This document shows positions 1 through 4,766 of a stretch of 4,766 nt of DNA, piece after piece. Under the pieces are notes generated by a model. The model made no database searches, was not told the origin of the DNA, and saw only the letters and a list, made by a program, of their open reading frames with translations. A program made the position numbers and the translations under genes. Positions within the stretch are counted from its first letter, which is position 1, and each line of letters opens with the position of its first letter. Origin of the DNA: a virus (Duplodnaviria > Heunggongvirae > Uroviricota > Caudoviricetes). The stretch lies in the IMG/VR virus record IMGVR_UViG_2778261165_000015. The stretch is one strand, 5' to 3'.

Positions 1-110
1 TGGAGATCACTGAATAACAAAATGAGTCAAAAGTGATCTCCATCGATGTTATTCAGCGATCTGTTCAAATGTTATTACCCGATCTCGATGGAAGTTATTG
101 AGTGATCTCC
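1..110. repeat. Array of GATC-containing 15-bp repeats (consensus GTTATTnnnYGATCT): direct copies at 48-62, 71-85 and 94-108 phased at exactly 23 bp, one inverted copy at 4-18, and a 9-bp inverted repeat GGAGATCAC / GTGATCTCC at 2-10 / 33-41
   Basis: Read directly: gttattcagcgatct (48-62), gttattacccgatct (71-85), gttattgagtgatct (94-108); agatcactgaataac (4-18) is the reverse complement of the consensus. GATC at 5, 36, 58, 81 and 104. The 23-bp period is not a multiple of 3, so this is a DNA-level signal, not a protein repeat. Confidence 0.8.
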
Positions 111-1851
111 TTTCATGAAAATACGCATCTTTAGCTAACTCTGGTAATTTAGCTTGTGCTTCCATTCGTTCAGGTGTAGAAGCTAATCTCTCATAACCTG
201 CATAGATAGCACTACCAGCTAATAACATATTCATAGGGTTTAGTCTTGATGGTTTCCCATTCTTTCTATTCACGTTATCCGCTGTAGTATCAGCGACCTG
301 ACCTAATCTTGTGATAGCAGTCATAAGCCCGTAAATACTTCTGGTTACACCAACAACTTTATTCACAGCAATAACACCAGCCAAGACTTTTAAACTATTA
401 ATCAAGCCAGAACCTAAAGCATCAACAACTTTCTTTTGTTCATCGGTTAAACCACGGTAAGCCAATGTCACCTCATCAAAGAAACCTCTCACCTTGTAAG
501 AAATATCAGTCAATGAATCGACACCATGTGACATATCAGTCATCAAGCTACCAAGAGATTCACCAAGACTTTTACCACTTCCACCTAAACTGTTTAAAAG
601 CGTTGTTAGGCTTCTTGTGAAATCTTGAAGACCATTTTCAGAACCTCTGAAGATACTATCAAGCGTGGTATTCCAAGAGTTTTTCAGGTTCCCTAGTTGT
701 GCCTGAGTACTTTCTGAAATAGTTTTCCAGCCACCTTTAGCGGTGATTTGTTTATTCAGTTCCTGAGTGACCTTCTGAAGAGTATCGGCAGATTTTAAAG
801 CCCCCTTCTTCATGGCATCAAATAGCTCTTGTTCATTCCTTCCGATTGCTTTAGCGAATACCTGAACCATACCAGGAACAGCTTCAGCTAATTGCCCCTT
901 AAGCTCTTCAGCCATAACCTGACCCTTACCAGCCATCTGTGATAATGCTGTCAGTGCTCGCTTAATCTCTTCTTCACTTCTCCCCATCAGACGAGCATAG
1001 CCAATCATATTTTTAAAAAGTTCTTCAGAACCTTGAATGCCCATAGACTCTTTAGCTGAAGCACCAAAACCAGCAAACTGTGATTGCAGTTCAGCGATAT
1101 CTAAACCCGTTGTTTGAGCTAATGACTTTGTGAACTCTTTTACTTGAACTGCATCTTTATCAAATACGAAATCAATTGAACGTTCAGCACTTGCACGCTG
1201 TAAACCAATTTCCATAATCTTCTGATAACTGGCTAATACAGCCTGCATTGAGATAAATGCACCTGCTGTTTTAACTGCCGCTGAAGACAGGTTATCAAGA
1301 CTATTAGCTGCTCTGTCACCATTAATGCTGGTGGATGTATGACCTTTAGCTTTAGCAATTGCTTCTCTGACTGAAGCATTTAACTGAGCTAACTTCTCAT
1401 TGAATTTTGAAGAATCCATTGACCCAGCTTTAGCAGATAGCCCGTAAAACTGAGATTTGATGTATTTCTGCAAAATAGGGTCGAAGCCTTTCAGCTTGCT
1501 CATGTTAGCCTGATAAGCTGCTCTTACAGCTCGGTCACCAGTATTTACTCTTGGCTGTCTTGGCTGTCTAAGTGGCTTTAAAGTATCCTCAATTTCCGTT
1601 TTAATCTTAAACGCTTTAGTGTTTTTAAGACGCTGCTCAATCTTGGAAACAGTTTTATCGACATTCTTTTCCATTAGTTTGAGAGAATCATTTAAAGGCG
1701 TAGGATTCACTTTAAACGCCTTATTCAATCGCTTCTCAATTCGTGATGCTACCTGCATCGTTTGTTTCTCGGCTTTTTCCAGACCTTTTAAAACTTTCTG
1801 AGAGTTAAAACTTAACTCAATCAGAAAATCATCAACTTTAAACTGTGCCAT
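49..1851 (-). CDS. Phage tail tape measure protein, lambda gpH-like (600 aa)
   Basis: 600-aa ORF with TAA stop at 49-51. N-terminus MAQFKVDDFLIELSF resembles the lambda H N-terminus as I recall it (MAEPVGDLVVDLSL). Central segment ALTALSQMAGKGQVMAEELKGQLAEAVPGMVQVFAKAIG matches the tape-measure-domain signature from memory. Helical, Ala/Leu/Lys/Gln-rich composition and a hydrophobic C-terminal stretch fit the family. SD AAGAGGTG lies 11 nt upstream of the ATG; an in-frame TGA two codons upstream fixes the start. Not verified by search. Confidence 0.75.
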   Translation of the reverse strand: MAQFKVDDFLIELSFNSQKVLKGLEKAEKQTMQVASRIEKRLNKAFKVNPTPLNDSLKLMEKNVDKTVSKIEQRLKNTKAFKIKTEIEDTLKPLRQPRQPRVNTGDRAVRAAYQANMSKLKGFDPILQKYIKSQFYGLSAKAGSMDSSKFNEKLAQLNASVREAIAKAKGHTSTSINGDRAANSLDNLSSAAVKTAGAFISMQAVLASYQKIMEIGLQRASAERSIDFVFDKDAVQVKEFTKSLAQTTGLDIAELQSQFAGFGASAKESMGIQGSEELFKNMIGYARLMGRSEEEIKRALTALSQMAGKGQVMAEELKGQLAEAVPGMVQVFAKAIGRNEQELFDAMKKGALKSADTLQKVTQELNKQITAKGGWKTISESTQAQLGNLKNSWNTTLDSIFRGSENGLQDFTRSLTTLLNSLGGSGKSLGESLGSLMTDMSHGVDSLTDISYKVRGFFDEVTLAYRGLTDEQKKVVDALGSGLINSLKVLAGVIAVNKVVGVTRSIYGLMTAITRLGQVADTTADNVNRKNGKPSRLNPMNMLLAGSAIYAGYERLASTPERMEAQAKLPELAKDAYFHERRSLNNFHRDRVITFEQIAE

Positions 1852-1879
1852 TGTTCATATTTCACCTCTTTAAGCGTGA

Positions 1880-1934
1880 GCTACGTAAAAAATAATTTTT
1901 GGTGGGTATATCTGTTCAGAAGATTTCACGTAGC
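1880..1934 (-). promoter_or_regulatory. Imperfect 11-bp inverted repeat (GCTACGTRAAA) enclosing 33 bp, in the 5' untranslated region just upstream of the tape measure RBS
   Basis: gctacgtaaaa at 1880-1890 and tttcacgtagc at 1924-1934 (10/11 complementary). Would form an 11-bp stem with one G-U pair in the minus-strand RNA, or act as a palindromic operator in DNA. Confidence 0.4.
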
Positions 1935-1961
1935 ACATAGGATTCGATAGAAGACTATCTC

Positions 1962-2010
1962 ATATACAAAAAAGGGAGAAACTACCGATATCACTCGATA
2001 ATCTCTCCCG
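1962..2010 (-). terminator. Rho-independent terminator downstream of the 69-aa gene
   Basis: Minus-strand RNA reads GGGAGAG...UUCUCCC (stem from 1974-1979 / 2004-2009, with an inner UAUC/GAUA helix) followed immediately by UUUUUUGUAU (A-run 1968-1973 on plus). Sits ~25 nt after the stop of the 2034..2243 CDS. Confidence 0.6.
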
Positions 2011-2033
2011 TACTTTACCCAACCAATTCTTTT

Positions 2034-2243
2034 TTAATGTCTGACAAGATAATGTAGTTCCGTTTCACCTATGACTTGAGCATCAGAAGGAATACGGTCA
2101 ATACACCACTTTGGAATCTTGCGTGTTTTTGGTTTGCGTGAGGTGATAACTTGACGTTTGTTTTTAATTCTTAAGGCTGGATTGGCTTGTAACTTTAAGT
2201 TTTCACAAACAGACCGAATAGTCTCTAAACGTTCTTCAAACAT
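2034..2243 (-). CDS. Hypothetical small basic protein (69 aa)
   Basis: ORF with a strong SD (AAGAGGTG, 4-nt spacer, ATG). Lys/Arg-rich centre (RIKNKRQVITSRKPKTRKIPKW). Same frame as the upstream gene, separated by TGA and its own SD, so not a frameshift product. No family recognised. Confidence 0.6.
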   Translation of the reverse strand: MFEERLETIRSVCENLKLQANPALRIKNKRQVITSRKPKTRKIPKWCIDRIPSDAQVIGETELHYLVRH

Positions 2244-2267
2244 TAATCACCTCTTCTTAATTCATAA

Positions 2268-2978
2268 TCAAAGTGCTTTGCTGTATTTCTGAGAAATCTT
2301 AGTAAGCTGCTCAATATCAGCCTGCATAGCAATCTTCTTCTGTGATTCATATTCACTAATAATCGCTTTCATGCTATCAAGTTCTTTTTTAAGCTTTTGC
2401 TTTAACTTATCCAGCTTATCGGAGTAATGCTTAGTCAGATTAGCTTCAGCTAGCTGAAGAATCTCTTCATCTGTTTTATCAGTCATCAGAACAAATTGAC
2501 CAGAACCCCTTAATGCTTGTCTGACATCAATTAACCGGAACCCTTCAGGGATACTTTGAAGAACTTTAGGAACGTCTTCAATCGCTGTACCAAAACCATC
2601 ATTAAAGTTCCCTTCATAATAGATAAACGGGTTTGACTTAATCTCGTAAGCAATATCATATTCTGAAGGTTTCGAGGTTTCTTCGAAGTTCTTAACAGCA
2701 TCGTAAGCAATATCAAGTCTAAGACGCTGTGATTTTAAAGCTGGGTAATATTCACGCTCAAGATTAAATAGTGCTTCACTTTTGCAGATATCTGGCATTT
2801 CTTGAGGTTCAGGAGACACAAAGGTAATTTCCTTTGGTGACATCTTTAGCGATTGCTCAAGCTTAATTCTTTCATCGTGTTCTTTACGCTGAATAGCGAT
2901 AGCTGGATGTTCAGTCGTTGGTGACCAGTCACCGAAGCTATCAATCACTTTGCCATTAATGTAAATATCGTTTGTCAT
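2268..2978 (-). CDS. Hypothetical protein (236 aa) with a C-terminal coiled-coil-like region
   Basis: ORF with SD GAGG 9 nt upstream of the ATG. C-terminal ~60 residues are heptad-like and K/E/L/Q-rich (KLDKLKQKLKKELDSMKAIISEYESQKKIAMQADIEQL). No recognisable catalytic motif. Confidence 0.7.
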   Translation of the reverse strand: MTNDIYINGKVIDSFGDWSPTTEHPAIAIQRKEHDERIKLEQSLKMSPKEITFVSPEPQEMPDICKSEALFNLEREYYPALKSQRLRLDIAYDAVKNFEETSKPSEYDIAYEIKSNPFIYYEGNFNDGFGTAIEDVPKVLQSIPEGFRLIDVRQALRGSGQFVLMTDKTDEEILQLAEANLTKHYSDKLDKLKQKLKKELDSMKAIISEYESQKKIAMQADIEQLTKISQKYSKAL

Positions 2979-3003
2979 TATTTTTTTCCTCTAAGTGTGG
3001 TTA

Positions 3004-3081
3004 TTTCTTAATAGAGCACCTTCAACGCCAATACACTTAGAAGATGACTTAACGATTTATTAAAGATGCTCTATTAAGAAA
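3004..3081. repeat. Perfect 15-bp inverted repeat (TTTCTTAATAGAGCA) with arms at 3004-3018 and 3067-3081, 48-bp spacer
   Basis: Read directly; the reverse complement of 3067-3081 equals 3004-3018 exactly. Lies between hairpin H1 and the RBS of the 236-aa gene. Confidence 0.75.
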
Positions 3082-3110
3082 AGCCCTAAACATAATCTGT
3101 GAAGGGCTTT
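3071..3110 (-). terminator. Terminator-like hairpin H1 (AAAGCCCT / AGGGCTTT stem, 15-nt loop) followed by UUUUCUU on the minus strand
   Basis: Stem 3080-3087 / 3103-3110. The U-tract overlaps one arm of the 15-bp inverted repeat. Short stem, so termination is likely partial. Confidence 0.4.
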
Positions 3111-3170
3111 GAAGGTTTGCTTTATAACGTTAACGAAGTTTCAGGAAAAACTTTCTTTAAAAGCTCTGTT

Positions 3171-3209
3171 TAAAAACTCTTAAAGAAAGCCCTAATCATG
3201 AGTTAGGGC
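3171..3209 (-). terminator. Rho-independent terminator H2 (GCCCTAA / TTAGGGC stem, 7-nt loop) followed by UUUCUUUAAGAGUUUUU
   Basis: Perfect 7-bp stem at 3189-3195 / 3203-3209 with a U-rich tract on the minus strand. Shares the AAGAAA(A)GCCCTAA module with H1. Confidence 0.55.
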
Positions 3210-3255
3210 AAAGCTGTAAAGGATTCAAACGAATGAACAAAGACTTTTTGAGATA

Positions 3256-3280
3256 GCCTCTCAAGTTATATAAGAGAGGC
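3256..3280 (-). other. Stem-loop H3 (GCCTCTC / GAGAGGC, 11-nt loop) within the leader; no adjacent U-tract
   Basis: Perfect 7-bp inverted repeat read directly; flanks are not U-rich on either strand, so probably not a terminator. Confidence 0.4.
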
Positions 3281-3377
3281 CATGACGAAAAGCATTGCAC
3301 CTTTCCAACTCAGAATATCCATCCATCGGATTATTGAAAATATGATTTTAGGAAAAATTGCTCTTCCTATATATACA

Positions 3378-3406
3378 ATTATGTCATGCTCAAGGTTATT
3401 TGTCAA
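3378..3406 (-). promoter_or_regulatory. Near-consensus sigma70-type promoter: -35 TTGACA, 17-bp spacer, extended -10 TGaCATAAT
   Basis: Minus strand reads gctgTTGACAaataaccttgagcaTGaCATAATtgtatat. -35 is 6/6, spacer 17, -10 is 5/6 with a TG at -15/-14. Predicted start site near 3371, transcribing toward the terminators and the 236-aa gene. Confidence 0.55.
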
Positions 3407-3431
3407 CAGCTTTTAACAGATTGATAACAAT

Positions 3432-3497
3432 CTATACTTTAATAGACGCACCTGCAATCATACCAACCAATACAAAACAGATAATCACCAATTCCAT
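3432..3497 (-). CDS. Candidate 21-aa hydrophobic micro-protein (MELVIICFVLVGMIAGASIKV), a single predicted transmembrane helix
   Basis: Not in the supplied ORF track (too short). ATG overlaps the upstream TAA stop (TAATG). SD AAGGTGG sits 7 nt upstream. A 17-residue uninterrupted hydrophobic core is flanked by E and K. TAG stop at 3432-3434. Confidence 0.4.
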   Translation of the reverse strand: MELVIICFVLVGMIAGASIKV

Positions 3498-3820
3498 TAA
3501 TGCACCACCTTCGAATCCGTCACCAAAATATTGTCAGCGTACAAAATTGCTATAGCTGCCTTGAGATATCTTTCAGGGCTAACGCTGTATTTGTTCGTTT
3601 GCTCAATAACCAATCTTTTCATATTACTGTCTGTAATTGGTAACATCATTCGAGGCTCGTTAAACTCCACCGAGTGAATAAAGTCAGAGATGCTTTCCGC
3701 ATTATCAGCCATTAACTCTAACAACTTATCAAAGTCAATGCTAACACCTACATCAGTGAAAGCCTGAATCATCATGGCGGTGTCGGTATCAATAAAAATC
3801 TGTAGTGGGAAATTATTCAT
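3497..3820 (-). CDS. Hypothetical protein (107 aa from ATG 3820; the track's longer 144-aa form starts at 3931)
   Basis: ATG at 3820 has an AGGA SD with 8-nt spacing. The extra 37 codons upstream (3821-3931) are GC-richer with atypical codons (CCG, CTC, AGG), lack a good SD and overlap an inverted repeat, so the shorter start is preferred. No cysteines, no recognised motif. Confidence 0.55.
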   Translation of the reverse strand: MNNFPLQIFIDTDTAMMIQAFTDVGVSIDFDKLLELMADNAESISDFIHSVEFNEPRMMLPITDSNMKRLVIEQTNKYSVSPERYLKAAIAILYADNILVTDSKVVH

Positions 3821-3899
3821 TTTTAAAATCCTATAAAAACACATCTTAAATCTGCCAAAATAACCATTCTGAGGCCAGTAACCATGCGGGTTACAGAGG

Positions 3900-3946
3900 G
3901 AGTGAGACACCTTAGTAATAGGGTAGCTCATCTTTGAGTCTCACTC
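3900..3946. repeat. 9-bp inverted repeat GAGTGAGAC / GTCTCACTC with a 29-bp spacer, between the 128-aa and 107-aa genes
   Basis: 3900-3908 and 3938-3946 are exact reverse complements. No U-tract follows, so it looks like an operator or RNA structure rather than a terminator. Confidence 0.45.
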
Positions 3947-3958
3947 ATTCTCACAGAC

Positions 3959-4345
3959 TTACACAGACGCTTTAATCTTGTAGTATTGACTACGTGATAA
4001 GCCGTATTTCTCAGAAATATAACTTTGTGATTGTCCTTTGGTGATTGCATCAATGATTAAATCTTTATCGTATCTGTTACCGTTGGCTTTGTGCTTGTCA
4101 CTATTTTTAATAGAGTTGAAGTTCTCCATTAATTCAATGGCGTCTTTAAGGTCGCTTTCGTAAGCATAATCAAAACCTCTGATAAACTCGAAATCACCAT
4201 TATCTTTTTGTGCTTCAGCCCAGATATCAAATCTTGAGGCTAATTGCTGGTGGGTAAACTTGGGTTTATTGGTTTGTGTTACGTCTTTCCAGACTTTACC
4301 GTCAAATCTTACCAAATGGTCACGATGTTTATAAAAGTCATACAT
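3959..4345 (-). CDS. Hypothetical DNA-binding protein (128 aa) with a C-terminal resolvase/Hin-type helix-turn-helix
   Basis: Strong SD GGAGG 4 nt before the ATG, which overlaps the upstream stop (TAATG). C-terminus KGQSQSYISEKYGLSRSQYYKIK resembles the Hin/Gin recombinase HTH (GIGVSTLYRYF pattern). The ~95-aa N-terminal part is too short and lacks the serine-recombinase catalytic signature. Confidence 0.7.
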   Translation of the reverse strand: MYDFYKHRDHLVRFDGKVWKDVTQTNKPKFTHQQLASRFDIWAEAQKDNGDFEFIRGFDYAYESDLKDAIELMENFNSIKNSDKHKANGNRYDKDLIIDAITKGQSQSYISEKYGLSRSQYYKIKASV

Positions 4346-4581
4346 TAAACCTCCATCGCTAATTTGTGAATTTTGATACTTAGTAACCTTGCTAAATCCA
4401 GTCCAAAAGCATTTAAAGATTTCAGACTATCAAGGTCATCTTTCTTAATCCTGACATGGTGTCTTGCTGCCTCTAAACGACTATTAAGCAAATCCTGCTC
4501 GTTAATATCACGGTTAATTGCAAGCTTCATCACTGCTGAGTGCTGAGAGATCCCCTCATAATTTCCCCAAAGCGTAACCAT
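4345..4581 (-). CDS. Hypothetical protein (78 aa as drawn; start uncertain)
   Basis: ORF whose stop overlaps the start of the 128-aa gene. No convincing SD before ATG 4581 or the internal GTG/ATG at codons 17/18. The first 26 nt overlap the upstream partial ORF. Confidence 0.45.
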   Translation of the reverse strand: MVTLWGNYEGISQHSAVMKLAINRDINEQDLLNSRLEAARHHVRIKKDDLDSLKSLNAFGLDLARLLSIKIHKLAMEV

Positions 4582-4766
4582 GTGTGAATAAATTTTGAGC
4601 TAGTAGGGTTGCAGCCACGAGTAAGTCTTCCCTTGTTATTGTGTAGCCAGAATGCCGCAAAACTTCCATGCCTAAGCGAACTGTTGAGAGTACGTTTCGA
4701 TTTCTGACTGTGTTAGCCTGGAAGTGCTTGTCCCAACCTTGTTTCTGAGCATGAACGCCCGCAAGC
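4556..4766 (-). CDS. 3' end of a gene whose 5' part lies beyond the window (69 codons visible, C-terminus ...LFTHGYALGKL)
   Basis: Stop-free minus-strand frame from the window edge to TGA at 4556-4558, not in the supplied track because no start is in the window. GC content here is visibly higher (~47%) than the rest. Confidence 0.45.
   Translation of the reverse strand, partial: LAGVHAQKQGWDKHFQANTVRNRNVLSTVRLGMEVLRHSGYTITREDLLVAATLLAQNLFTHGYALGKL

What the first reader, a model, noticed from the sequence alone, without database searches (positions are those of the whole stretch)
4556..4766. Compositional shift and an untracked partial gene at the right edge
GC rises from ~39% to ~47% right of ~4580, and a 69-codon stop-free frame runs off the window, overlapping the putative start of the 78-aa gene. 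This may mark a module or insertion boundary, and it casts doubt on the start of the 78-aa ORF.
Basis: seen in the sequence. Interest (0 to 1): 0.35.

Follow-up and report, generated by a model that had tools for sequence, protein, structure and literature searches.

The report
IS10 insertion cutting a prophage gene
The GC-richer right edge of the window is one end of the well-known jumping gene IS10, which landed in a small prophage gene of an E. coli chromosome and cut off its start; this is an ordinary, fully explained event.

Summary
Window 4543-4766 is the inside end of insertion sequence IS10 (annotated by NCBI as ISVsa5). It is 224/224 bases identical to the IS10 of Tn10 on plasmid R100. 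The 69-codon open frame (minus strand, stop at 4556-4558) is residues 334-402 of the IS10 transposase, 69/69 identical. IS10 begins at 4543, not ~4580. The 9 bp just left of it (4534-4542, TGCTGAGTG) recur at the other IS10 end in a sister complete genome, which is the classic 9-bp target duplication at a near-consensus IS10 target. The "78-aa ORF" is a chimera of 13 IS10-derived codons (no ribosome-binding site) and the last 65 codons of a native 93-aa gene. Removing IS10 in silico restores that gene. GC is 46.9% in the IS10 part against 37.7% in the host DNA. The window is a complete short-read contig that ends in multi-copy insertion sequences on both sides (ISEc12 at 1-127), which is why the frame runs off the edge. 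The host DNA is a ~12-kb phage-derived island between yciI and tonB. Novelty: already known. Interest: low.

The parts
4543..4766 (-). Inside-end 224 bp of insertion sequence IS10 (IS4 family; NCBI label ISVsa5). The rest of the 1329-bp element lies beyond the contig end.
   Evidence: 224/224 identical to IS10 next to tetD in Tn10 of plasmid R100, and >=99% identical in 898 plasmids. The terminus CTGAGAGATCCCCTCATAATTTCCCC starts at 4543.
4556..4765 (-). 3' end of the IS10 transposase gene: codons 334-402 plus the stop codon (TGA at 4558-4556).
   Evidence: 69/69 identical to residues 334-402 of the 402-aa R100 IS10 transposase. NCBIfam IS4-family transposase model, E=5.8e-12, matching the C-terminal end of the model.
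4549..4552 (.). Single GATC (Dam) site 7-10 bp inside the IS10 inside terminus
   Evidence: Seen directly in the sequence. That Dam methylation of this site regulates the inside end is established knowledge about IS10 and was not tested here.
4534..4542 (.). 9-bp target site TGCTGAGTG, the left copy of the target-site duplication
   Evidence: In the sister genome NZ_CP148483.1 the same 9 bp directly flank both IS10 ends. It matches NGCTNAGCN at 5 of 6 specified positions and fits the relaxed NRCNNNGYN fully. Consensus sequences are from PMC4574204.
4345..4542 (-). Surviving 3' part (65 codons plus stop) of a native 93-aa gene of unknown function. The first 28 codons and the ribosome-binding site are displaced to the far side of IS10.
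   Evidence: Removing IS10 and one duplication copy in silico restores a 93-aa ORF collinear with the intact 93-aa homologues in strains 67-1 and MB20.
4543..4581 (-). IS10-derived 13 codons (MVTLWGNYEGISQ) that give the 78-aa ORF its spurious ATG
   Evidence: There is no Shine-Dalgarno motif upstream (AAAATTTATTCACAC|ATG), whereas the native start has GAGGAATTTTAAA|ATG.
128..4533 (-). Host DNA: part of a ~12-kb phage-derived island (tape-measure gene 128-1851 and small ORFs of 69, 236, 107 and 128 aa), all on the minus strand and co-oriented with the transposase gene
   Evidence: Pfam TMP_3 E=1.2e-19 and PHROG tape-measure E=9.5e-78. Homologous islands lie between yciI and tonB in 481 of 5426 E. 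coli genomes.
1..127 (-). Terminus of a second insertion sequence, ISEc12 (IS21 family), which truncates the tape-measure gene at the other contig end. It is not part of the finding but explains the contig.
   Evidence: 100% identical to a multi-copy sequence in 1463+ E. coli genomes, adjacent to istA/istB of ISEc12. The tape-measure protein diverges from the intact 694-aa version at residue 575.

Best explanation
A single copy of the IS4-family insertion sequence IS10 transposed into a 93-aa gene of a phage-derived island in an E. coli chromosome. It used both of its own ends (inside and outside), so this is not a composite Tn10. As is known for IS10, the transposase made staggered cuts 9 bp apart at a near-consensus target (TGCTGAGTG), and repair duplicated those 9 bp. 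The window holds the left duplication copy (4534-4542), the IS10 inside end (from 4543) and the last 69 codons of the transposase gene. The transposase gene reads leftwards, in the same direction as the phage genes. The insertion separates the native gene's first 28 codons and ribosome-binding site from the remaining 65 codons. By chance an ATG inside IS10 is in frame, which creates the 78-aa ORF that gene callers report. Shown here: the identity of the element, the exact junction, the duplication, restoration of the gene on in-silico excision, and the rarity of the junction. Inferred: the gene is inactivated, the chimeric ORF is poorly translated or not at all, downstream tail genes suffer polarity, and the contig stops because the assembler could not resolve a multi-copy repeat.
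For: 224/224 identity to IS10 of R100/Tn10, and matches in 1175 plasmids annotated as ISVsa5-family transposase. Peptide 69/69 identical to transposase residues 334-402. The canonical inside terminus starts at 4543. In the 100%-identical sister genome the same 9 bp flank both ends of one 1329-bp IS10. The target fits the published IS10 consensus sequences. Excision in silico restores a 93-aa ORF collinear with intact homologues. Relatives without IS10 have continuous DNA across the site. The junction occurs in only 2 of 5426 complete E. coli genomes plus two draft assemblies, so it is recent and clonal. The window equals the whole contig NTPJ01000128.1. GC is 46.9% against 37.7%.
Against: Nothing contradicts it. 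Limits: the window's own genome cannot be followed past 4766, so the far IS10 end and the second duplication copy were seen only in sister genomes. In those genomes the IS10 additionally carries a nested Tn5. Whether that holds for the window's strain is unknown. Expression of the chimeric ORF was not tested.
Confidence: 0.97

Rival explanations
1. The right edge is the end of a composite Tn10 (tetracycline-resistance transposon) rather than a lone IS10.
For: The 224 bp are identical to the IS10 copy that forms part of Tn10 on R100. The window alone cannot tell the two apart.
Against: In Tn10 the inside ends face the tet genes, and only outside ends abut target DNA. Here an inside end abuts the target. 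In the sister genome the 9-bp duplication brackets one IS10 (inside end plus outside end), with no tet genes.
Confidence: 0.01
2. The boundary is a native mosaic or module junction of the phage-derived island, and the open frame is a phage gene.
For: Phage genomes are mosaic, and composition jumps are common at module borders. The tape-measure gene itself has a 46.4% GC stretch.
Against: The sequence is 100% identical to IS10 from its exact terminus. Relatives of the island are continuous across the site and encode an intact 93-aa gene.
Confidence: 0.005
3. The junction is an assembly artefact: a chimeric contig joined through a short shared sequence.
For: The window is a short-read contig whose ends lie in repeats.
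Against: The identical junction is present in two complete chromosomes and in an independent 62-kb draft contig, and it carries a proper target-site duplication.
Confidence: 0.01

Closest known systems
IS10 (IS10-Right of Tn10; ISfinder/NCBI synonym family ISVsa5), IS4 family
   Same: The sequence is identical over all 224 bases present, including the inside terminal repeat, the Dam GATC site and the transposase C-terminus. The insertion has a 9-bp target duplication at a GCTNAGC-like site.
   Different: Nothing in the element itself differs. Only the insertion site (a 93-aa gene in a yciI-tonB island) is particular to this lineage.
IS-mediated decay of cryptic prophages in E. coli
   Same: A defective phage-derived island accumulates IS hits: IS10 here, ISEc12 in the tape-measure gene, and IS3-family copies and Tn5 in sister genomes.
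   Different: No functional consequence has been demonstrated for this island, and its own function is unknown.

Membership tests
IS10 / IS4-family insertion sequence | Terminal inverted repeat with the IS10 inside-end sequence CTGAGAGATCCCCTCATAATTTCCCC | tested here: met
   Exact match starting at 4543. The identical string ends the 1329-bp element in R100.
IS10 / IS4-family insertion sequence | Encodes the 402-aa DDE transposase reading from the outside end to the inside end | tested here: met
   The 69 codons present equal residues 334-402 at 100% identity and stop 13 nt from the terminus. NCBIfam IS4 transposase model E=5.8e-12. The N-terminal 333 residues lie outside the window.
IS10 / IS4-family insertion sequence | 9-bp direct target-site duplication | tested here: met
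   TGCTGAGTG flanks both ends in sister genome NZ_CP148483.1. Only the left copy is inside the window.
IS10 / IS4-family insertion sequence | Target resembles NGCTNAGCN, or the relaxed NRCNNNGYN | tested here: met
   5 of 6 specified positions for the strict consensus, and a full match to the relaxed one. Consensus sequences as quoted in PMC4574204.
IS10 / IS4-family insertion sequence | Full element of 1329 bp with an outside end (CTGATGAATCCCC...) present in this strain | not testable with these tools
   The contig ends at 4766. In sister genomes both halves are present, 1-765 and 756-1329, split by Tn5.
Composite transposon Tn10 | Outside ends of two IS10 copies abut the target, with tet genes between the inside ends | tested here: not met
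   An inside end abuts the target, and the sister genome has no tet genes in the locus.

The most novel reading that the evidence does not exclude
The ~12-kb yciI-tonB island may not be a dead prophage remnant. It carries a serine recombinase, a Dit-like baseplate protein, a tape-measure protein, an HNH+AP2 protein and six small ORFs with no family, and no capsid, portal or terminase gene is annotated. It could instead be a conserved, uncharacterised tail-gene-bearing satellite or defence-type island. In that case the 93-aa gene hit by IS10 could be its small DNA-binding regulator, so these strains would be natural knock-outs. Nothing here tests this. The 93-aa protein has only sub-threshold hits (DndE-like, E~0.01).
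Probability: 0.04. Interest if true: 0.4.

Novelty: already known. Interest (0 to 1): 0.07.

Why it matters
The main value is for annotation. It shows that a RefSeq "hypothetical protein" (WP_277887766.1, the 78-aa ORF) is an IS10/host junction chimera. It explains why this contig ends where it does. It also documents a clonal marker, the IS10 junction at TGCTGAGTG, shared by a small group of E. coli isolates. Two of those are complete genomes from chicken isolates that are heavily loaded with IS10. No new biology is implied.

Tried and rejected
1. Composition alone as evidence was rejected as insufficient: a native stretch of the tape-measure gene reaches 46.4% GC.
2. Pfam, PHROGs, NCBIfam and PDB sequence searches for the restored 93-aa protein and its small neighbours gave only sub-threshold hits: DndE E~0.01, HTH_28 E=0.003 for the 128-aa protein, gp41 E~0.3. 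No function is claimed.
3. An Rfam scan of the whole window at E<=0.1 found nothing.
4. The promoter/terminator scan found no consensus promoter reading out of the IS10 inside end.
5. The phage collection held no relative of the host DNA, only the IS ends. The plasmid collection held none either.
6. I ran no further search on the 93-aa gene, because the result would not change the verdict.

Full report
OBSERVATION. The window is AT-rich, and all its long ORFs are on the minus strand. GC is 37.7% for 128-4542 and 46.9% for 4543-4766 (46.8% for 4581-4766). No 224-nt window of the host part reaches the right-edge value (mean 37.6%, sd 2.8%, maximum 46.4% near 762). The minus-strand frame 4765->4559 is open for 69 codons and ends with TGA at 4558-4556. 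It overlaps the ATG (4581-4579) of the 78-aa ORF 4345-4581 by 26 nt. Both parts of the observation are therefore confirmed. The composition jump is only marginally beyond native variation and would not be decisive on its own.

IDENTITY. Bases 4543-4766 are 100% identical to a sequence present in 1175 plasmid records, where the underlying gene is annotated "IS4-like element ISVsa5 family transposase". In R100 the match is the IS10 copy lying next to tet(B)-tetC and an HTH gene of Tn10. By the known Tn10 gene order, which I take from my own knowledge, that copy is IS10-Right. Using the canonical end sequences, the R100 element is 1329 bp. The window matches its first 224 bases from the inside end without a mismatch, and the inside terminus CTGAGAGATCCCC... 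begins at window 4543. The 69-residue peptide equals residues 334-402, the C-terminus, of the 402-aa transposase, 69/69. It also hits the NCBIfam IS4 transposase model at E=5.8e-12. One GATC lies at 4549-4552. This is the Dam site known to regulate the IS10 inside end; that role is established knowledge and was not tested here.

JUNCTION AND TARGET DUPLICATION. The host DNA (128-4542) matches E. coli chromosomes only. It has no plasmid match and no phage-collection match apart from the IS ends. It is found in 481 of 5426 complete E. coli genomes, mostly at 80-95% identity, and two chicken isolates from Korea (Z1323CEC0004 and Z1323CEC0002) are 100% identical. In Z1323CEC0004 the same junction is present. 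The other IS10 end lies 7.2 kb to the right, and the 9 bp TGCTGAGTG directly flank both ends. The extra length is a complete Tn5 nested in IS10 at nt 756-765. The 9-bp target matches NGCTNAGCN at 5 of 6 specified positions and fits the relaxed NRCNNNGYN consensus fully. Both consensus sequences and the 9-bp duplication are as quoted in PMC4574204. An inside end abutting target DNA, together with a duplication that brackets one IS10, shows transposition of IS10 alone and not of Tn10.

CONSEQUENCE FOR THE 78-aa ORF. Relatives lacking the IS (strains 67-1 and MB20) have a 282-nt, 93-aa gene at this position. Joining window ...4542 to the sequence that follows the second duplication copy restores a 93-aa ORF collinear with those homologues (MKNKHTLTRITKTAFDELNRIKNITGLP|HSAVMKL...). 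The 78-aa ORF therefore consists of 13 codons supplied by IS10 (MVTLWGNYEGISQ) and the last 65 native codons. Its ATG has no Shine-Dalgarno motif, whereas the native start has GAGGA. RefSeq nevertheless annotates the chimera as hypothetical protein WP_277887766.1. I infer that the gene is inactivated. The insertion probably also exerts polarity on the co-oriented downstream genes. The function of the 93-aa protein remains unknown. Pfam, NCBIfam, PHROGs and PDB sequence searches gave only sub-threshold hits.

WHY THE FRAME RUNS OFF THE WINDOW. An exact-protein look-up shows that the window is the entire contig NTPJ01000128.1 of assembly GCA_002463735.1. Its left 127 bases are the istA-proximal terminus of ISEc12 (IS21 family), a sequence present in multiple copies in more than 1400 E. 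coli genomes. That element cuts the tape-measure gene at codon 575 of 694. The contig is thus a unique segment bounded by two multi-copy insertion sequences, the usual place for short-read assemblies to break. This last point is an inference. It is supported by a second draft contig (L007) that ends exactly 127 nt into the same IS10.

DISTRIBUTION AND HISTORY. A 240-nt probe centred on the junction is fully covered in only 2 of 5426 complete genomes. The chimeric protein is recorded in four contigs in all. L007 has the IS10 junction with an intact tape-measure gene. The window adds ISEc12 inside that gene. The two complete genomes instead have ISEc12 downstream of the gene, plus IS3-family insertions and Tn5. 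The IS10 insertion is therefore the shared, older event in a small clone, and the other IS hits came later and independently.

CONTEXT. The host DNA belongs to a ~12-kb island between yciI and tonB. The island encodes a serine recombinase, a Dit-like baseplate protein, the tape-measure protein (Pfam TMP_3 E=1.2e-19; PHROG E=9.5e-78), an HNH_3+AP2 protein and several small ORFs with no family. No capsid, portal or terminase gene is annotated. I treat it as a phage-derived remnant. Whether it is an active element was not tested.

COMPARISON AND VERDICT. Every defining IS10 feature that can be tested was met: the terminus, the transposase C-terminus, the 9-bp duplication and the target consensus. 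Membership of composite Tn10 was tested and not met. Native mosaicism and assembly artefact are excluded by the exact IS10 identity, the restored ORF and the independent assemblies. The finding is a correct catch of an insertion boundary and of a spurious start codon. The feature itself is a textbook IS10 insertion, so it is already known and of low interest.

Noticed in passing
window 1-127: Terminus of a second insertion sequence, ISEc12 (IS21 family). It contains internal repeated sites (GGAGATCACTnAATAAC, in inverted and direct copies). It truncates the tape-measure gene at codon 575 of 694 and adds 26 foreign codons to the 600-aa ORF. Its length of exactly 127 nt suggests a k=127 assembly-graph overlap.
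   Followed up: yes
L005 (NZ_CP148483.1) 914-8071; also L001, L006: In the two 100%-identical complete genomes the same IS10 is split at nt 756-765 by a complete Tn5 (IS50, aph(3')-II, ble, aph(6)-Ic, IS50R). These chromosomes have at least 40 IS10 matches each, and further ISEc12 and IS3-family insertions in and around the tape-measure gene.
   Followed up: partly
window 128-4542; L011 about 5300-17150: The host DNA is a ~12-kb island between yciI and tonB, present in 481 of 5426 E. coli genomes. It has a serine recombinase, a Dit-like baseplate protein, a tape-measure protein, an HNH_3+AP2 protein and six small ORFs with no family hit, but no annotated capsid, portal or terminase. It may be a remnant or an uncharacterised element.
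   Followed up: partly
window 2979-3496: A ~500-bp non-coding stretch with a 22-nt inverted repeat (3004-3025 / 3060-3081), two copies of an AAAGCCCTAA-containing motif, a terminator-like hairpin (3209-3189, minus strand) and a near-consensus sigma-70 site with an extended -10 (3406->3378, minus strand, 11/12). It has no Rfam match.
   Followed up: partly
window 4345-4581 (minus strand): RefSeq carries this chimeric IS10/host ORF as hypothetical protein WP_277887766.1, which is an annotation artefact of the insertion.
   Followed up: yes
window 3497-3931 (minus strand): The mechanical ORF is 144 aa, but RefSeq and the other gene calls use an internal start that gives 107 aa (324 nt). The upstream 37 codons are probably not coding.
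   Followed up: no
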